Positions 1,255 to 8,033 of a stretch of DNA of 10,174 nt are shown piece by piece; position 1 is the stretch's first letter; each line of letters opens with the position of its first letter. The translations under genes were made by a program, and so were the position numbers. The DNA is from a virus (Duplodnaviria; Heunggongvirae; Uroviricota; Caudoviricetes): IMG/VR virus record IMGVR_UViG_2548876862_000020; one strand, 5' to 3'. The notes under the pieces are model-generated. The model was not told the DNA's origin. It made no database searches and saw only the letters and a program-made list of their open reading frames with translations.

Positions 1255-1449
1255 TTAATAGTTCTGCTGATTTTCTTCCATCTCTGCTTCTGCTGCCAGT
1301 GATTCAATTTTGTTTTCGAATATTGCTGACAGTGTTGCAAATTCAGCATCAGTGACAGCGGGAATTGGAACAAACCTGATCCCGCTGTGTGCAAGCATGT
1401 TTGCAGTTTCAAGGCATTTTCTTAAATCTGCTGGTGATGCCCTGTTCAT
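1255..1449 (-). CDS. Hypothetical small acidic protein (64 aa), translationally coupled to the methyltransferase
   Basis: Internal ATG at 1449-1447 of track ORF 1255..1569 overlaps the methyltransferase TGA stop (1448-1446) as ATGA. GGGAG sits 8-9 nt upstream. Stop lies 3 nt from the convergent int stop. The longer 104-aa form would overlap 120 nt of the methyltransferase gene and was not preferred. Confidence 0.5.
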   Translation of the reverse strand: MNRASPADLRKCLETANMLAHSGIRFVPIPAVTDAEFATLSAIFENKIESLAAEAEMEENQQNY

Positions 1450-2096
1450 GCAGCACGCTCCCGCCCCTGGTTGTCTGTTGGTGACAGCGGAGAATTGCTG
1501 AATGCATTTGTTAATCCGCCAATATCCAACGCGTATCCAGGGTGTAGTTGCACTGCCGGGTCTTCGCACTGATTACCCCAAACATCGAAGCCATGAGACG
1601 ACTGGCGGGCGAATAGTTCAATGCGAGAAACATCGCCTAACAATTGCACAAGTTTTTCACGAACGACATCTGGTTTTCTTGAGTGCTCAAGCCGCGGTGC
1701 GGTAAATGACTGAACGATCCCTGCATTAATGCGCGGAGGTAGTTTTCCCTTTACCGCAAACAGGCAATCTTCACTATTGGCGCGAGTCATGTGTCCCATA
1801 CCCATAACCAGTTTATCTGGTTGTCGACTACCACATTTTATCCACGTGAATCCCTTCATGGTCATCAGACGGAATCCCCAGGCTTCAACAACTTTTAGTG
1901 CTTCGAGTGGTTGTGTTGGCACCCACCACATGGCCAACAGACAGTTTTCATCGGCCAAATCCCACACAGGAAGGCGGCAGATATCCAGCACACTCATAAC
2001 CGGATATTTAAAACCGGCACCGCGATTACCATCTGCGGCTTTATCCCGGTATACCCAGGGTGGATCTGCATAGATTAGCGTGTATTTCTTAGTCAT
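1446..2096 (-). CDS. Orphan N6-adenine DNA methyltransferase, MT-A70 family
   Basis: 216-aa ORF with N-terminal IYADPPW (DPPW catalytic motif of MT-A70-type amino-methyltransferases). No adjacent restriction endonuclease gene. Lies in the prophage left arm, as do Dam-like methylases of Stx-type phages. Confidence 0.85.
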   Translation of the reverse strand: MTKKYTLIYADPPWVYRDKAADGNRGAGFKYPVMSVLDICRLPVWDLADENCLLAMWWVPTQPLEALKVVEAWGFRLMTMKGFTWIKCGSRQPDKLVMGMGHMTRANSEDCLFAVKGKLPPRINAGIVQSFTAPRLEHSRKPDVVREKLVQLLGDVSRIELFARQSSHGFDVWGNQCEDPAVQLHPGYALDIGGLTNAFSNSPLSPTDNQGRERAA

Positions 2097-2795: not shown

Positions 2796-3677
2796 TTACA
2801 TAGATGTTTCGTTTAATTCTTCCCGACGAACGCTGTAAACGTCGGTGGCTTTTGCCAGCAGTTCGTCATCATCTGAAAGTTTTTGTGCAATGTATTTGTA
2901 AGCCTTATCCAGTTCGGAGACAGTGCTGTAATTCATCGCTGCGCTGGTAAAGGCCATCAGCATTTCTTCTGGATCACGGCTATCCGCTTTACGCGTTTGC
3001 TCATCATGCTTTTTCGCTGGTTTAGCGTTGATCAGACTGTTCATTCCCGCAGCAGTAGTCGTTTGCGGAGTAATGTCTCGCTCAACGCGCGGTGCCGTTT
3101 CCTGTAATTCGTCAGGGGTGTAAACACCGAGAAGCACATCAGGAGCGTGCAGGCGAGCCCATCGTTTCGTGCAAAGATAGGCAAGCTGCTGGCGCGGATC
3201 CTGTTCCCACAATGGAGAGTTACGCACTCCGGCTTGCGCCATACTGATGGTAAGCTCACGGGGTTCTGCTTCTCCTTTAAGAACTGCTGACACAGTTACC
3301 GTCAGATTCGGTGATTTATCTGTTTTGCCGTTAACATTCGACCAGTCACCGCTCCAGCGATAATTCAGGCGTGTCGCTAGCAGGCTGGAAGAGGATACGA
3401 CCGCGTTTACCAACTGTGCTTCGTAGCCTAACGTTCCGTTTACCACATGCGTTTTCTGCGCCACGGCGAAAGGGTTCATTCCCCACTGTGCCGCCTGCAT
3501 GGTCACCGCCAGACAATCGGAAGGTTTGCCTTCAAGATGTTTCGGTACAGTCGCTTTGCTTTGTGACATCAACTCCGCGAAACGCACCAGTTGATTCATG
3601 CCCTCGGGGCTGAAGATTGCCGCAGCAGTGCCTACAGTTGCGCCTGGTTGTGATGTGATTGCGATATCATTGCTCAT
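2796..3677 (-). CDS. recT: RecT/Bet-family single-strand annealing recombinase
   Basis: 293-aa ORF. Segments MQAAQWGMNPF and RVERDITP resemble lambda Bet / RecT. Start ATG overlaps the upstream exonuclease stop as ATGA (3677-3674). Confidence 0.85.
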   Translation of the reverse strand: MSNDIAITSQPGATVGTAAAIFSPEGMNQLVRFAELMSQSKATVPKHLEGKPSDCLAVTMQAAQWGMNPFAVAQKTHVVNGTLGYEAQLVNAVVSSSSLLATRLNYRWSGDWSNVNGKTDKSPNLTVTVSAVLKGEAEPRELTISMAQAGVRNSPLWEQDPRQQLAYLCTKRWARLHAPDVLLGVYTPDELQETAPRVERDITPQTTTAAGMNSLINAKPAKKHDEQTRKADSRDPEEMLMAFTSAAMNYSTVSELDKAYKYIAQKLSDDDELLAKATDVYSVRREELNETSM

Positions 3678-4495
3678 ACATACATATCCTGTTTACGTGC
3701 CCAGTCAGGGCGTTTAATAATTTCCACTCCGCCCCATTCATCGTTGATGCGGCATTCGTGATAGGTATTCAGATCCCGGCGGAACAGAGCGTGCCCGGCA
3801 TCGACATCCTGCGCATCCAGCTCGAACACGCGTACCGGATACCGACCACAATCAATGCTTTCGCTCACGGCAAGAAAGAAAAAACCATGCGTCTGACCAG
3901 TAACCCTCATTGCGCCTTCGCGGTACATTGCGTCCTGCACGTGGTAGCGGAATTCCTCGATGTGGCGTGCAAAACGGTCCATATCTGCAACCTTTTTCAC
4001 GTCGACGATCACGTTGTGCTCGTTCAGCCATTTGTCTGGACGAATGCGGCACAACTCACCAGTATCTTCATCGTTCCAGTACATTGATGCTTCGCAGTAA
4101 CCAGGTGCTTCCAGCATCCAGCGTGCCGCCGGGTGAGCCATTGCGCTATCACGCATCAGCTCCAGTTTCCGCCACTGCTCGGCATCAAGTACCGTAATCC
4201 CCATATCCGCCACATCACGAAGAAATGCCTCTTCGTCAGCTTTACCTTGTTTCGTCCGACGATCGAATTTCGGTGAAACAATGAAGCGTTTGTCGAACTC
4301 TCCAGGCTCCAGAAGCAGACAGTGCAATGCGGTTCCCATATCCAGTGCAGACTTTTTCTCTTCGTCTTCTGGTGCTGCCTGAACCCATTTAAGAAGCGCC
4401 GGATTCTTGGCAACCATGTCCAGTTGCGACTTACTCACGCCGTCACCTGCGTGGTAGTCTTCGTTGCTGATGTCGAAATAAATTCCCGGTTTCAT
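3674..4495 (-). CDS. RecE-like short-form exonuclease (exonuclease VIII-like, PD-(D/E)XK fold)
   Basis: 273-aa ORF starting MKPGIYFDISNEDYHAGDGVSKSQLD, typical of prophage short exonuclease VIII-like proteins. Candidate D...E-x-K nuclease motif around RPDKW...VDVKK. Paired and translationally coupled with recT. Confidence 0.8.
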   Translation of the reverse strand: MKPGIYFDISNEDYHAGDGVSKSQLDMVAKNPALLKWVQAAPEDEEKKSALDMGTALHCLLLEPGEFDKRFIVSPKFDRRTKQGKADEEAFLRDVADMGITVLDAEQWRKLELMRDSAMAHPAARWMLEAPGYCEASMYWNDEDTGELCRIRPDKWLNEHNVIVDVKKVADMDRFARHIEEFRYHVQDAMYREGAMRVTGQTHGFFFLAVSESIDCGRYPVRVFELDAQDVDAGHALFRRDLNTYHECRINDEWGGVEIIKRPDWARKQDMYV

Positions 4496-5099: not shown

Positions 5100-5708
5100 T
5101 TATTGTTTGCTTTTTTCGTTCTGGTTGATGACAAATTCAATGTAACTTTCGATCTTTGCTTTCTCGGTTTCGGGTAACAATGCGTAGCGCGAGCGGTCAT
5201 AGTTGATAGTCGCAGGGTCGTGCGGGTGAATCAGTAGTTCATATCCGTGACGCCCGAATGCGGATGCAACATTCTCCAGGGTGGAAATGGAAACGCTGAC
5301 CTCATTGTTTAACAGGCGGCTGATTGTCACCTGGGCGACGCCGGATGCGCGGTGAAGTTTTCCCTGCGTTGAAAGGTCGCGGCTTTCGCTCATCCAGCGT
5401 TCCAGGTTGTGAGCCGCCAGCTGACCAATGTCGCTTGGTCCGACAGGCTGAAAACCTTCCTGAGAAAGCGAGCGATCGATATCAAGCCAGTTACGGGGTT
5501 TATTGGCGGCAGCTTCAATTTTTCGCGCAACCTGGTCGCCGATAACCTTCTTGCCAAGAGCCCAGCGGTTTACCAGATTTGCCTGAGTTCCAAGTTTTTC
5601 TGCCATCCGCGTCTGAACACCATTGAATTCACGGTCGATCAAGTCGTTGAGATTTTGCCTGCGGACGTCCTGGATACTTTTCATTTTCTGGAAAATCGCC
5701 TCATACAT
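5100..5708 (-). CDS. Prophage immunity repressor (CI-like position) with two HTH domains and no apparent S24 peptidase domain
   Basis: 202-aa ORF divergent from the cro-like gene across the operator region. N-terminal HTH (QTRMAEKLGTQANLVNRWALGKK) and a second XRE-type HTH (SGVAQVTISRLLNNEVSVSISTLENVASAFG). No room or motif for a LexA-like Ser/Lys autocleavage domain. Confidence 0.75.
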   Translation of the reverse strand: MYEAIFQKMKSIQDVRRQNLNDLIDREFNGVQTRMAEKLGTQANLVNRWALGKKVIGDQVARKIEAAANKPRNWLDIDRSLSQEGFQPVGPSDIGQLAAHNLERWMSESRDLSTQGKLHRASGVAQVTISRLLNNEVSVSISTLENVASAFGRHGYELLIHPHDPATINYDRSRYALLPETEKAKIESYIEFVINQNEKSKQ

Positions 5709-5739: not shown

Positions 5740-5813
5740 TTACCCAACAGGTAAATGCACCCCATAGGTAACTATCCTTGATTTTTGTTACCTTATGGGT
5801 GAATATTTATTAT
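5740..5813. promoter_or_regulatory. OR-like operator/promoter region between repressor and cro-like genes
   Basis: Three palindromes: 5740-5754 ttacccaacaggtaa, 5757-5771 gcaccccataggtaa (degenerate), 5788-5802 ttaccttatgggtga. Candidate pR: -35 TTGTTA (5785-5790), 17 bp, -10 TATTAT (5808-5813). Candidate pRM on minus strand: -10 AATCAT (5724-5719), a few nt before the repressor ATG. Confidence 0.55.
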
Positions 5814-5838: not shown

Positions 5839-6069
5839 ATGAGCGATAACGGACATTTCGATTTCAAAAAGCACTGGCTTGCACTTACTCCGGATGAGCG
5901 TGAAGCCTTCGCACAGGAAGCCGGAACGACGAGTCACTATATCCAGACTCACTTAACAGGTAAGCGCAAAATGCCAGGTAAAGTATTGATGAATGGGCTT
6001 TTTAAAGCCTGTAAATCAAGACAATGGTTGCGCTCAAAAGCAGAACTGGCATACTTCTTCTACTCATGA
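5839..6069 (+). CDS. Cro-like HTH regulator (YdaS/Cro-type)
   Basis: 76-aa ORF divergent from the repressor. HTH-like segment LTPDEREAFAQEAGTTSHYIQTHLTGKRKMP. Occupies the cro position. Confidence 0.65.
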   Translation: MSDNGHFDFKKHWLALTPDEREAFAQEAGTTSHYIQTHLTGKRKMPGKVLMNGLFKACKSRQWLRSKAELAYFFYS

Positions 6070-6114: not shown

Positions 6115-6219
6115 ATATCTATTCGCACCTCAAAGGTAATAAAAAACCAAATCTGGTTGATCTTTTTTTTGTGTCAGCACAAAATAACCGTAATCCCAAT
6201 ACTAATAACAGGGCTTACC

Positions 6220-6420
6220 ATGGAAATCATTACACGTATTGATGCCGCAAAGCGCGGACTTAAACGCTACTACACCGGAAAACCATGTAAGCACGGACAT
6301 GACAGTGAACGCTGGGTTTACAACGGACACTGTGTTGAGTGCACCATGGAATCAAACCGTCGCATCAGGGCAGAGATTAAGCAGATCATGATTAATTCCT
6401 CCCCACAACATTCAAGCTGA
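6220..6420 (+). CDS. Small Cys/His zinc-ribbon-like protein (66 aa) at the cII position
   Basis: Internal ATG 6220 of track ORF 6157..6420. Upstream part of the track ORF overlaps the terminator region and is hydrophobic junk. Motif C-K-H-G-H ... C-V-E-C. Confidence 0.5.
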   Translation: MEIITRIDAAKRGLKRYYTGKPCKHGHDSERWVYNGHCVECTMESNRRIRAEIKQIMINSSPQHSS

Positions 6421-6435
6421 TAGCGGAGATTAATC

Positions 6436-7251
6436 ATGAGCAGACATGCAACAGATTGGGCCTGGGAGACAGATCCAGGTAGCTCGTCATTAAAGCTCAT
6501 ACTGCTCTCGATGGCTGACAGAGCCGATGAATATAACCTCTGCTACCCCAGCATAGAACGCCTCGTTAAAGACACTTGCCTGAATAAAAAAACCGTACAG
6601 GCCGGGCTTATATCGCTCATGAAAATGGGGCTTATTTCAGATACCGGAGAGAGAAAGGGTGCGACGAAAAGAGTGCGGGTTTTCTCTCTTAATATAACCA
6701 AAAACGGGAACATTAAAGGCAACCGGGAGGGAGGTAATGAACCCAAAAACGGTAATGTTACCGAAAACGGGAATATACCCAAAAACGGGATGTTGAATAT
6801 ACCCAAAAACGGGATGTTGAATGATCCCAAAAACGGGATCCAGAACCAGTCATATAACCAGTCATTTAACCAAGAGAGGGAGAGCAGGACAAAAACCGGG
6901 GATTCTGTTCCTCATGACCCCGGCGCAAACAACGCCGTGATGAATAACTTTGTTCCTCCTGGTGGGCTAGGGCAATTAGGCAAATTTGTCATGCATGAAC
7001 AATGGCAACCATCAGATGACTTTCTTCGGAAAAGCTCATTGCAGGGGATCTACCTGGACAGTCTGCCAACGGCACAGGAACTTGCAGAGTTCAGAATTTA
7101 CTGGATGGCTGAGGGTAAGGCATACCATCAGGCACAGTGGGAGCAGAAGCTGGCAAGGCGGCTGCAGATTAGCAGACAGAAGCAATCAACATTACCTGAT
7201 AACAACGTTCCGCACTGGAACAGCCCTGAAGCGTGGGAGGATTTCTTGTGA
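6436..7251 (+). CDS. Replication initiator, O-like (winged-helix N-domain, repeat linker, C-domain)
   Basis: 271-aa ORF, ATG 6436 preceded by GGAG at 7 nt. Contains DNA iterons internally. Immediately followed by and overlapped with a lambda P-like gene. Confidence 0.8.
   Translation: MSRHATDWAWETDPGSSSLKLILLSMADRADEYNLCYPSIERLVKDTCLNKKTVQAGLISLMKMGLISDTGERKGATKRVRVFSLNITKNGNIKGNREGGNEPKNGNVTENGNIPKNGMLNIPKNGMLNDPKNGIQNQSYNQSFNQERESRTKTGDSVPHDPGANNAVMNNFVPPGGLGQLGKFVMHEQWQPSDDFLRKSSLQGIYLDSLPTAQELAEFRIYWMAEGKAYHQAQWEQKLARRLQISRQKQSTLPDNNVPHWNSPEAWEDFL
6698..6840 (+). repeat. Origin-like iterons inside the O-like gene
   Basis: Six copies of core CCAAAAACGG(G/T)A at 6698, 6743, 6762, 6778, 6802, 6826. 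Two exact 24-bp tandem units at 6775-6798 and 6799-6822. Followed by tandem CAGTCAT(A/T)TAACC at 6847-6871. Encodes the low-complexity PKNG peptide repeat. Confidence 0.75.
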
Positions 7252-8033
7252 ACAACGTTTTTACCGCGATACAAAACCGTGACGGAGAAGCCCTTTATCG
7301 CATGTCAGGTTATGAGCATCAGTACGTCAACAATGACAATGTGGTGAACATGTCAGCAGAGAGGCTTGTTGATGCCCTTTTCAAACAGCTGAAACAACTG
7401 TTTCCGGCGGCAGTGGTAACCAACCTGAAGACGCCAGAGCAGGAAGTTGCTGCAAAACAGCAGTGGATTGCTGCGTTTGCCGAAGGGGGGATCCGAACCC
7501 GTGAACAGGTTTCTGCTGGTATGCGCCACGCCCGCGCCAGTGAATCTCCGTTCTGGCCGTCGCCAGGGCAATTTATCAAGTGGTGTAAAGACAGCAAGAT
7601 GGTTCTTGGCGTCACCATTGACGATGTGATGGCGGAGTTTCACCGGTACAGCAAGGAAAAAAGTTTATATCCTGGTGGTCCCGAAAGATTCCCGTGGCGA
7701 CATCCGGTTATGTACTGGGTCGTATGTGATACCCGCCGTGCAATGTATCAGCGCCAGCTTAGCGAGATTGAGGTTGAGAAACATGCGCGCAGGCTGCTCG
7801 ATGATTGGGCGAAAAAGGTGGCTTCCGGACAGCAGATACCCGATCCGGTGATCAGCATACAGGCAAAGCCAGAACCCATGAGTACGCCTCCGGACACAGG
7901 GAGAGACGTTTACCATCCACCAGGGCGAAGTTTCGGGTGTATGCCTAACGCCGCTACCCTGGGGGGAATAACACCGGCGCAGTGGCTGATGGAGGAATAC
8001 AGGCGGGGAAAGGCGGCAGGATTTATCAAGTAA
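7248..8033 (+). CDS. Lambda P-like replication protein (DnaB helicase loader)
   Basis: Segment QQWIAAFAEGGIRTREQVSAGMRHARASESPFWPSPGQFIKWCKDS parallels lambda P as recalled from memory. Preferred start GTG 7248 has GGGAGG 8 nt upstream and overlaps the O stop as GTGA. Track start 7233 has no SD. Confidence 0.8.
   Translation: MNNVFTAIQNRDGEALYRMSGYEHQYVNNDNVVNMSAERLVDALFKQLKQLFPAAVVTNLKTPEQEVAAKQQWIAAFAEGGIRTREQVSAGMRHARASESPFWPSPGQFIKWCKDSKMVLGVTIDDVMAEFHRYSKEKSLYPGGPERFPWRHPVMYWVVCDTRRAMYQRQLSEIEVEKHARRLLDDWAKKVASGQQIPDPVISIQAKPEPMSTPPDTGRDVYHPPGRSFGCMPNAATLGGITPAQWLMEEYRRGKAAGFIK

What the first reader, a model, noticed from the sequence alone, without database searches (positions are those of the whole stretch)
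6698..6871. Iteron array embedded in the O-like gene and translated as a PKNG peptide repeat
At least six direct repeats with core CCAAAAACGG(G/T)A lie inside the initiator gene, including two perfect 24-bp tandem units. They encode the linker GNIPKNGMLNIPKNGMLNDPKNG. A tandem pair CAGTCAT(A/T)TAACC follows at 6847-6871. This mirrors lambda, where ori sits inside O, and probably marks the replication origin; the repeat number may vary between relatives.
Basis: partly seen in the sequence, partly recalled or inferred. Interest (0 to 1): 0.4.

Follow-up and report, generated by a model that had tools for sequence, protein, structure and literature searches.

The report
Phage replication origin inside initiator gene
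The repeats are real and are most likely the replication origin of a phiV10-like E. coli prophage, sitting inside the gene for the protein that binds it; this is an ordinary lambda-style arrangement, here in a different initiator family.

Summary
Six in-frame copies of CCAAAAACGG(G/T)A lie at 6698-6838, including two perfect 24-bp units, followed by a 12-bp tandem at 6844-6872.

The repeats sit in the linker-coding part of a 271-aa initiator gene (6436-7251). The protein has an N-terminal HTH_36 winged helix and a C-terminal DnaT-like ssDNA-binding domain. A lambda P-like helicase-loader gene follows, translationally coupled.

The window is a phiV10-like (Uetakevirus) prophage found in 424 of 5426 complete E. 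coli genomes.

Copy number varies from 4 to 11 among near relatives, always by whole units.

Every distant relative examined that has the same N-terminal domain (Edwardsiella, Vibrio, Acinetobacter, Burkholderia, Pseudomonas phages) carries an array at the same place. The core is often read in different frames within one gene, so the constraint is on DNA. The PKNG peptide repeat is a by-product.

Immediately after the last iteron, 22 of 22 lineages carry C(A/G)GAA(C/T)C plus more such boxes about 12 nt apart.

The best reading is a lambda-type origin: a new member of a known kind, not tested experimentally. By sequence the initiator is not a lambda O family member.

The parts
6436..7251 (+). 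Replication initiator gene (271 aa). It has an N-terminal winged-helix domain, a repeat-encoded linker and a C-terminal DnaT-like domain.
   Evidence: ORF list and translation. PHROG phrog_1032 'replication initiation protein', E 5.5e-107, over the full length. 96-98% DNA identity to phiV10 gene p43 and relatives.
6487..6636 (+). Coding region of the HTH_36 helix-turn-helix domain (aa 18-67), the presumed iteron-binding domain.
   Evidence: Pfam PF13730, E 1.8e-10. The same domain sits at the N-terminus of every relative that carries an array.
6690..6709 (+). Iteron unit 1 (TAATATAACCAAAAACGGGA), the distal copy, 45 nt from the next one.
6735..6754 (+). Iteron unit 2 (TAATGAACCCAAAAACGGTA).
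6753..6772 (+). Iteron unit 3 (TAATGTTACCGAAAACGGGA). It has one mismatch in the core, and the core is almost identical to the phi80 iteron TCCCGAAAACGGGAA.
6771..6790 (+). Iteron unit 4 (GAATATACCCAAAAACGGGA), which starts the first perfect 24-bp unit.
6795..6814 (+). Iteron unit 5 (GAATATACCCAAAAACGGGA), which starts the second perfect 24-bp unit.
6819..6838 (+). Iteron unit 6 (GAATGATCCCAAAAACGGGA). It has the best dyad, GATCCC-N6-GGGATC, and is the copy next to the box element.
6841..6875 (+). Box element CAGAACCAGTCATATAACCAGTCATTTAACCAAGA: three (G/T)AACC boxes at 12-nt period.
   Evidence: TRF period 12. C(A/G)GAA(C/T)C lies directly after the last iteron in 22 of 22 lineages. A two-box pattern hits that site in 19 of 23 loci, against 4.2 hits expected over all 161 kb scanned. 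Low duplex stability. Only 2 of 37 sites vary among 46 haplotypes.
6985..7191 (+). Coding region of the DnaT-like ssDNA-binding domain (aa 184-252).
   Evidence: Pfam PF17948, E 1.1e-15. E 7e-21 to solved E. coli DnaT C-terminal domains, PDB 6AEP, 4OU6 and 9ZBT.
7248..8033 (+). Lambda P-like helicase-loader gene. Its GTG start overlaps the initiator stop codon (GTGA).
   Evidence: Pfam PF06992 Phage_lambda_P, E 1.5e-56. PHROG phrog_109. phiV10 p44 has the same length and the same overlap. Sequence read.
5785..5813 (+). pR-like promoter candidate between the divergent repressor gene (5100-5708, -) and the cro-like gene (5839-6069, +). It would drive transcription through the origin.
   Evidence: Consensus scan only, 9 of 12 matches. 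The gene order matches phiV10 and lambda.

Best explanation
The segment 6690-6875 is the replication origin of a phiV10-like temperate phage. It is embedded in the linker-coding part of the gene for its own initiator, as ori-lambda is embedded in gene O.

Inferred mechanism:
- Dimers of the N-terminal winged-helix domain bind the six dyad-symmetric iterons (core CCC-AAAAAC-GGG, preceded by a directional RAAY sub-element). They form an O-some-like complex on intrinsically bent A-tract DNA.
- The stress opens the adjacent low-stability box region (6841-6875).
- The C-terminal DnaT-like domain captures single-stranded DNA and/or docks the P-like loader.
- The loader delivers host DnaB.

What is shown here: the repeats; their position between the two domains; their conservation in position with change in sequence across the family; constraint at the DNA level; and copy-number variation.

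What is inferred: binding, opening, helicase loading and origin activity.

The PKNG peptide repeat is simply what the iterons encode when their spacing is a multiple of three, within a linker that tolerates almost any sequence.
For: Repeats are statistically real.

Gene context: the initiator (HTH_36 plus DnaT-like C-terminal domain) is followed by a translationally coupled lambda P-like loader, downstream of divergent repressor and cro-like genes.

Positional conservation: all eight phage relatives fetched by tblastn of the N-terminal domain carry an array starting about 250-300 nt into the gene. So do 19 further IMG/VR lineages.

Specificity covariation: all 19 CCC..GGG lineages in the alignment keep K-T-(V/I) in the recognition helix. 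The three with KRT, RST or KRA have unrelated iterons.

DNA-level rather than peptide constraint:
- The same core is read in different frames within one gene in GF-2, PPompW, Bcep176, phi2 and lambda itself.
- 67 of 120 diverse family representatives carry peptide signatures from at least two frames.
- The central codon varies between N, I and F while staying A/T-rich.
- Among 46 near-identical haplotypes, iteron cores plus boxes vary at 7 of 109 sites, against 32 of 185 in the spacers and right linker (Fisher p = 0.0075).

Iteron design matches experimentally defined lambdoid origins: lambda ATCCCTCAAAACGAGGGA and phi80 TTCCCGAAAACGGGAA.

Position of the boxes: GF-2 is a natural hybrid. Its HTH_36 domain, iterons and boxes are joined, right after the boxes, to the lambda-like 'GAGAATTCTGACGAATCC' sequence and a lambda O C-terminus (62% identity to O residues 156-299). 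The boxes therefore occupy the slot of lambda's A+T-rich region.

Stability: the box window is the least stable 40-mer of the gene (within 16 nt) in 11 of 22 lineages and in the top 6% in 15 of 22. In the window, 6771-6870 is in the least stable 5% of 100-bp windows and is the only such stretch lying inside a long ORF.

Circular form: a relative was assembled as a circular 41-kb 'plasmid' in which this gene pair is the replication module seen in the 5.8-kb stretch examined.

The lambda mechanism cited comes from PMC7466680 and PMC5043065.
Against: No experiment exists for this phage or for any member of the HTH_36 initiator family, and none was found in the literature.

There is no conspicuous A+T-rich tract like lambda's. 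The box region is only 53-58% A+T, and the least stable windows of the 10-kb sequence are intergenic.

The third-codon-position test within close relatives is not significant: 3 of 24 against 37 of 210, p = 0.77.

The box region is also conserved as a peptide (QNQSLEPVIEP) in many relatives, so a protein-level role for it cannot be excluded.

The structure prediction was uninformative, with pLDDT 37, so the claim that the linker is disordered rests on composition and variability only.
Confidence: 0.8

Rival explanations
1. The repeats are a protein-level feature only: a low-complexity N/G/P/K linker whose length is tuned by replication slippage. The DNA has no cis-acting role, and the origin lies elsewhere in the phage.
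For: In the window and its near relatives all copies are in frame, and indels are whole 18- or 24-nt units that preserve the reading frame. An 8-residue peptide pattern NxP(K/E)xGxL recurs in several relatives.
Against: In other family members the same DNA core recurs at 17-, 20-, 22- and 23-nt spacings and is translated in two or three frames within one protein.

Pro is always CCC and Gly is GGG in five of six copies. The central residue swaps between N, I and F while the DNA stays A/T-rich.

The linker between the cores varies freely at all codon positions, while the cores do not.

Each unit is a DNA palindrome, which has no meaning for a peptide.
Confidence: 0.06
2. The initiator does bind the sites, but their main role is regulatory rather than initiation: autoregulation or a transcription roadblock, titration or handcuffing for copy control, or exclusion of related phages.
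For: Iterons of plasmids also serve copy control. In Stx phages only the four iterons nearest the A+T-rich region are bound well (PMC7466680), so distal copies may have accessory roles. Copy number is variable, from 4 to 11. Adjacent iterons create terminator-like hairpins on the antisense strand.
Against: No iteron copies occur near the promoter region or anywhere else in the 10-kb window.

The array is always coupled to the box and low-stability element, and always sits next to a helicase-loader or helicase gene. That is the anatomy of an origin.

A regulatory role would add to origin function, not replace it.
Confidence: 0.08
3. The array is a selectively neutral hypervariable tandem repeat (VNTR) that happens to sit in a tolerant linker.
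For: Copy number varies between otherwise 96-99% identical prophages.
Against: A neutral repeat would not persist at the same position, with the same palindromic design and the same adjoining box element, in phages of Enterobacterales, Vibrio, Acinetobacter, Burkholderia and Pseudomonas whose N-terminal domains are only 28-57% identical.
Confidence: 0.03

Closest known systems
ori-lambda inside gene O of phage lambda (with the Stx-phage variants 933W and P27)
   Same: The direct repeats have internal dyad symmetry and a central A-tract: lambda ATCCCTCAAAACGAGGGA against ATCCCAAAAACGGGAT here. They lie in the middle of the initiator gene, between an N-terminal DNA-binding domain and a C-terminal domain, and are followed by a P-type helicase-loader gene in the early-right operon. 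Iteron number differs between relatives: 4 in lambda and 6 in Stx phages.
   Different: The N-terminal domain is Pfam HTH_36, not Phage_rep_O. There is no BLASTP similarity to O, and hhalign gives only 52% probability over the recognition helix and wing. The C-terminal domain is DnaT-like, not the lambda O C-terminus. There is no strongly A+T-rich, purine-asymmetric tract; instead there are 12-nt-period GAAYC boxes. All six copies are in frame, so a peptide repeat results.
phi80 origin in gene 15 and P22 origin in gene 18
   Same: The architecture is the same. The four annotated gp15 sites of phi80, TTCCCGAAAACGGGAA, are almost identical to iteron 3 here (ACCGAAAACGGGAA). They are followed by AGAAC repeats (CAAGAACAAGAACAGT) and an AAGATCT, as in several relatives of the window.
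   Different: Both initiators have Phage_rep_O N-termini. P22 pairs its initiator with a DnaB-like helicase. In P22 the 'GAATCAGTCA' next to the A-rich tract looks like a degenerate fourth iteron, so its likeness to the boxes may be coincidental.
Iteron origins of theta plasmids (RK2, F, pPS10, R6K)
   Same: Arrays of directional initiator-binding repeats lie next to an unwinding element made of short 13-mer-like repeats. The initiator also captures one strand there (PMC5043065). The full unit here is directional as well: RAAY-N3-CCC-N6-GGG.
   Different: Plasmid Rep proteins have two winged-helix domains (Pfam Rep_3), and their iterons lie outside the rep gene. No Rep_3 match was found here.
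E. coli DnaT (primosomal protein I, replication restart)
   Same: The C-terminal 85 residues align at about 55% identity with the solved ssDNA-binding domain of DnaT.
   Different: The N-terminal half of DnaT is absent and is replaced by a site-specific winged helix plus the origin-encoded linker. The protein is a phage initiator, not a restart factor.

Membership tests
Lambda-type phage origin embedded in its initiator gene (architecture class) | Three or more direct repeats with internal dyad symmetry in the middle of the initiator gene, between the DNA-binding and C-terminal domains | tested here: met
   There are six copies at 6698-6838. The HTH_36 domain ends at aa 67 and the DnaT-like domain starts at aa 184. 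The dyad is ATCCC-N6-GGGAT.
Lambda-type phage origin embedded in its initiator gene (architecture class) | An easily melted (A+T-rich) region directly downstream of the last iteron | tested here: inconclusive
   6771-6870 is in the least stable 5% of 100-bp windows, but it is only 53-58% A+T. In relatives the box region is the stability minimum of the gene in 11 of 22 lineages.
Lambda-type phage origin embedded in its initiator gene (architecture class) | The initiator gene is followed by a helicase-loader or helicase gene in the early operon under repressor/Cro control | tested here: met
   A P-like loader lies at 7248-8033, overlapping the initiator stop codon. A repressor gene lies at 5100-5708 (-) and a cro-like gene at 5839-6069 (+).
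Lambda-type phage origin embedded in its initiator gene (architecture class) | The repeat sequence changes together with the initiator's N-terminal domain, and that domain plus ori are exchanged as one module | tested here: met
   Different iterons accompany changed recognition helices. GF-2 joins this N-terminal domain, iterons and boxes to a lambda O C-terminus. AB1 and AP22 join them to another C-terminus plus a DnaB-like helicase.
Lambda-type phage origin embedded in its initiator gene (architecture class) | Initiator binding to the repeats and origin activity of the segment | not testable with these tools
   This needs EMSA or footprinting and a replication assay. No published data were found.
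Lambda O protein family (Pfam PF04492 Phage_rep_O) | An N-terminal domain that matches the Phage_rep_O profile | tested here: not met
   Lambda O, P22 gp18 and phi80 gp15 match PF04492 (E 6e-25 to 7e-38). The window protein and its relatives match PF13730 HTH_36 instead. BLASTP against O finds nothing. hhalign gives 52% probability over 43 columns.
DnaT (primosomal protein I) orthologues | A C-terminal ssDNA-binding three-helix domain (PF17948) | tested here: met
   PF17948, E 1.1e-15. PDB 6AEP, E 7e-21.
DnaT (primosomal protein I) orthologues | A DnaT N-terminal domain and a full-length match of about 179 aa | tested here: not met
   Only residues 180-265 align with DnaT residues 85-170. The N-terminus is HTH_36.
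Plasmid iteron-binding Rep proteins (Rep_3 / RepA-RepE-pi type) | Two tandem winged-helix domains that match Rep_3 | tested here: not met
   No Rep_3 hit in the Pfam scan at E <= 0.01.

The most novel reading that the evidence does not exclude
The HTH_36-type phage initiators form a large family: 555 clusters at 50% identity with E <= 1e-10, and 3732 with E <= 1e-3. They may share an origin grammar that has not, to my knowledge, been described.

Each iteron is a directional unit, RAAY-N3-CCC-N6-GGG. After the last complete iteron come 2-4 'half units' that keep only the 5' sub-element (C(A/G)GAA(C/T)C, period 11-13 nt). These half units are conserved even between phages whose iterons and hosts are unrelated.

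Under this reading the boxes are a sequence-specific unwinding element. The initiator oligomer spreads from the duplex iterons onto them, or captures one strand there, comparable to plasmid 13-mers or DnaA-trios, rather than relying on a merely A+T-rich tract.
Probability: 0.3. Interest if true: 0.55.

Novelty: new member of a known kind. Interest (0 to 1): 0.35.

Why it matters
It places the probable origin of a prophage carried by about 8% of complete E. coli genomes (424 of 5426). Its relative phiV10 is used as an O157 reporter and typing phage.

It shows that the 'origin inside the initiator gene' design extends unchanged from the lambda O family to a different and very large initiator family. 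RefSeq currently labels these proteins only as 'DnaT-like ssDNA-binding domain-containing protein'.

In practice, the segment 6680-6930 together with the two genes should make a compact conditional replicon.

The variable iteron number explains the length polymorphism of this protein (271-311 aa). That polymorphism splits it into many clusters in protein databases.

The conserved GAAYC boxes give a concrete, mutable candidate for the unwinding or strand-capture site in a family with no experimental data.

Tried and rejected
- Structure prediction from the single sequence gave pLDDT 37 and pTM 0.24, which is unusable, so no fold search was run.
- The third-codon-position conservation test within 46 near-identical haplotypes had too few variable sites (p = 0.77). 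A first version of that test was invalid because one sequence was out of register.
- The search for related loci with the 9-sequence alignment failed for lack of a conserved stretch. The 7-sequence alignment worked.
- The first IMG/VR scan returned only near-identical phages. Re-ordering the alignment with Bcep176 first gave the diversity needed.
- GC and AT skew around the gene are confounded by the switch in transcription direction at about 5750. They give no independent origin signal, only a top-strand A excess over 6400-7000.
- Rfam found nothing in the window.
- DnaA-box and IHF-site readings of the box element were checked by eye against their consensus sequences and do not fit.
- The idea that P22's 'GAATCAGTCA' is the same box was set aside, because it looks like a degenerate P22 iteron.
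- A possible seventh iteron at 6889-6903 was not counted, because that stretch varies among close relatives.
- Literature searches found no description of the origin of phiV10 or of any HTH_36-type initiator.

Full report
**1. Observation**

The repeats exist as described.
- CCAAAAACGGKA occurs six times on the + strand between 6698 and 6838 (five exact, one with a single mismatch). None of 200 dinucleotide-preserving shuffles of the window reach the observed count.
- Spacings are 45, 18, 18, 24 and 24 nt.
- Tandem Repeats Finder reports a period-24 array at 6771-6839 (score 122), a period-18 array at 6733-6788 and a period-12 array, AACCAGTCATAT x 2.4, at 6844-6872.
- Units 6771-6794 and 6795-6818 are identical.
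- The ORF 6436-7251 reads through them as ...GNIPKNGMLNIPKNGMLNDPKNGIQNQSYNQSFNQ....

**2. Context**

The 271-aa product has an HTH_36 helix-turn-helix domain at residues 18-67 and a DnaT DNA-binding domain at residues 184-252. It matches PHROG 1032, 'replication initiation protein', end to end. Residues 180-265 align at E 7e-21 with solved structures of the ssDNA-binding C-terminal domain of E. coli DnaT.

The next gene (7248-8033) overlaps the initiator stop codon (GTGA) and is a lambda P-type helicase loader (PF06992, E 1.5e-56).

Upstream lie a two-HTH repressor gene (5100-5708, minus strand), a promoter-like site (5785-5813), a cro-like gene and a terminator-like hairpin. Further left are RecE- and RecT-like genes, a methyltransferase gene and an integrase gene.

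The gene is 96-98% identical to phiV10 and other Uetakevirus phages. It is present in 424 of 5426 complete E. coli genomes. One relative was assembled as a circular 41-kb 'plasmid'.

**3. Copy-number variation**

An alignment of seven near relatives shows gain and loss of whole 18- or 24-nt units. phiV10 has an extra 12-nt AACCAGTCATAT unit.

Among 78 complete genes from IMG/VR, strict core counts run from 4 to 9. Forty-seven of them have exactly the window's arrangement.

Protein clusters have lengths of 271, 279, 283, 287, 291, 292 and 311 aa. The longest has eleven copies.

**4. Is the constraint on DNA or on protein?**

Relatives with the same N-terminal domain were taken from annotated phages by tblastn and from IMG/VR. 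All have a repeat array that begins about 250-300 nt into the gene.
- Edwardsiella GF-2: CCCAAAATTGGG.
- Vibrio Her: CCCGAAAACGGTAC, five to six copies at 24-nt spacing.
- Acinetobacter AB1 and AP22: CCCAAATTTGGG.
- PPompW prophages: CCCAAAAACGGGA.
- Burkholderia Bcep176: GTCCCAAA(A/T)...
- Stx phage Min27: GGGGCAGGAGCTGCCC.
- Pseudomonas phi2: ACCCCCGCAGGAAATGC, seven copies.

In GF-2, PPompW, Bcep176, phi2 and lambda itself the spacing is not a multiple of three. The same DNA core is then translated in different frames within one protein, for example TQKR and PKIG in GF-2.

In 120 diverse representatives of the family, 101 carry at least two peptide signatures of the core, and 67 carry signatures from at least two frames.

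Where the frame is kept, the middle codon changes between Asn, Ile and Phe while the DNA stays A/T-rich. Pro is always CCC, and Gly is GGG in five of six window copies.

Among 46 haplotypes of the 816-nt gene, the linker varies at all three codon positions, which indicates relaxed protein constraint. Iteron cores plus boxes are conserved islands within it: 7 of 109 sites vary, against 32 of 185 in the rest of the linker (p = 0.0075). A third-position test alone was under-powered.

The repeat is therefore a DNA element. The PKNG peptide repeat in this phage follows from in-frame spacing.

**5. Link to the DNA-binding domain**

Each unit is a palindrome: ATCCC-AAAAAC-GGGAT here, a perfect ACCCAAATTTGGGT in AB1, and GGGCAG-GAG-CTGCCC in Min27. 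That fits a dimeric binder.

All 19 lineages with CCC..GGG iterons in the alignment keep K-T-(V/I) in the predicted recognition helix and DTGE(R/K)xG in the wing. The three lineages with other residues there (L127, Min27, phi2) have unrelated iterons. The lineages are not phylogenetically independent, so this is suggestive rather than proof.

The domains are shuffled as modules.
- GF-2 joins this N-terminal domain, iterons and boxes to a lambda O C-terminus, 62% identical to O residues 156-299.
- AB1 and AP22 join them to another C-terminus and a DnaB-like helicase.
- The window and PPompW use a DnaT-like domain.

This is the classic lambdoid logic: the N-terminus goes with ori and the C-terminus goes with the loader.

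**6. The tandem pair is part of a family-wide box element**

When 22 lineages are anchored on the end of the array, C(A/G)GAA(C/T)C lies directly after the last, best-palindromic iteron in all 22. This includes Min27 and phi2, whose iterons are unrelated. One to three further (A/G/T)(G/A)AA(C/T)C boxes follow at 11-13 nt.

A two-box regular expression hits that exact site in 19 of 23 loci. Only 4.2 hits are expected by chance across all 161 kb scanned.

The boxes are read as Q-N, as R/G-T and as E-P in different phages. Within Vibrio phage Her they are read in two frames (QNQS, then EPVI), so they too are DNA elements. In many relatives the peptide QNQSLEPVIEP is conserved as well.

A logo of 106 iteron units from 19 lineages shows that the unit extends 5' of the core: R-A-A-Y-R-N2-CCC..., with A at 92% and 89% at positions -7 and -6, which the search pattern did not constrain. 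The boxes are therefore repeats of the 5' sub-element of the iteron without its CCC..GGG core. In the window they read GAAC-CAG-TCA, TAAC-CAG-TCA and TAAC-CAA-GAG.

In GF-2 the boxes sit between the last iteron and the lambda-like GAGAATTCTGACGAATCC sequence. That is the slot of lambda's A+T-rich unwinding region.

The 40-bp window starting at the first box is the least stable of the whole gene (within 16 nt) in 11 of 22 lineages and in the top 6% in 15 of 22. This is most striking in the G+C-rich Burkholderia and Pseudomonas phages.

In the window the region is in the least stable 5%, but it is not conspicuously A+T-rich.

**7. Mechanism**

By analogy with lambda, O dimers bind and bend four iterons, the adjacent A+T-rich region opens, O and P contact the open strands, and P delivers DnaB (PMC7466680; PMC5043065; PMC8508860).

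I infer the same sequence of steps here. The HTH_36 domain binds the iterons. The complex destabilises the box region. The DnaT-like domain provides strand capture and/or the contact for the P-like loader with DnaB. None of these steps has been tested for this family.

**8. Comparison and membership**

The architecture meets the sequence-testable criteria of a lambda-type origin, apart from a weak A+T-rich criterion.

The protein is not a member of the lambda O family.
- Lambda O, P22 gp18 and phi80 gp15 match PF04492, while this protein and its relatives match PF13730.
- BLASTP finds no similarity.
- Profile-profile comparison gives only 52% probability over the recognition helix and wing.

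The iterons nevertheless resemble those of phi80 (TTCCCGAAAACGGGAA) and lambda.

The protein is also not a DnaT orthologue, because only the C-terminal domain matches.

**9. Verdict**

- the protein family is wrong (O-like in role only);
- the peptide repeat is a by-product;
- the tandem pair belongs to a conserved box element.

This is a new member of a known kind. The origin of phiV10-type phages had not been described in the literature I could search. The conserved half-iteron boxes are the only part that might go beyond textbook knowledge.

Noticed in passing
window 6889-6923: To the right of the boxes lies an iteron-like sequence, ACAAAAACCGGGGAT. In phiV10 and most relatives it reads ACAAAAAACGGGGAT and is translated TKNGD. 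It overlaps a short inverted repeat, CCGGGG-N16-CCCCGG, that recalls the palindrome to the right of lambda's A+T-rich region. The stretch varies among close relatives, so it was not counted as a seventh iteron.
   Followed up: partly
window 6750-6763 and 6810-6829, minus strand: Adjacent iterons create terminator-like hairpins on the antisense strand: a GGGAT...ATCCC stem followed by GTTTTTGGG. They could stop antisense transcription into the origin, or they could be an incidental result of the iteron design.
   Followed up: no
window 6823-6826 and 6837-6840; L009, L102, L125, L131, L137, L142, L151, L177 (phi80): GATC (Dam) sites flank the last iteron in the window. Many relatives and phi80 carry AAGATCT at the right end of the box region. 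The window also encodes a DNA methyltransferase (1446-2096, minus strand). A possible link between methylation and origin use was not examined.
   Followed up: no
L102, L116, L125, L132, L137, L142, L147 (IMG/VR relatives), about nt 400-440 of the gene: In the PPompW-like lineages the penultimate iteron is inverted (CCCGTTTTT(T)CC) relative to the last one. The final two sites therefore face each other just before the boxes. The window lacks this arrangement.
   Followed up: no
L002 (Escherichia phage BP9, PP488543.1, 134-136 kb): A 138-kb Vequintavirus (virulent, rV5-like) record ends with this temperate-phage initiator and P module at 95% identity. This looks like an assembly chimera or contamination with a phiV10-like prophage rather than a real gene of that phage.
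   Followed up: no
L178 (NZ_CP079771.1, plasmid pHL15EC-2, 41,027 bp, circular): A phiV10-like phage genome is deposited as a circular plasmid of E. coli strain HL15. It is probably the excised or replicating phage genome captured in the assembly.
   Followed up: partly
window 6157-6420 (+): A small ORF just upstream of the initiator gene matches phrog_1081 (unknown function). It corresponds to phiV10 p42 / epsilon15 p40 and is conserved next to the initiator in all E. coli relatives fetched. Its role is unknown.
   Followed up: no
window 2796-4495 (-): The RecT-like and exonuclease VIII-like genes are two ORFs overlapping by 4 nt here. The phiV10 record annotates a single RecE-RecT fusion protein.
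   Followed up: no
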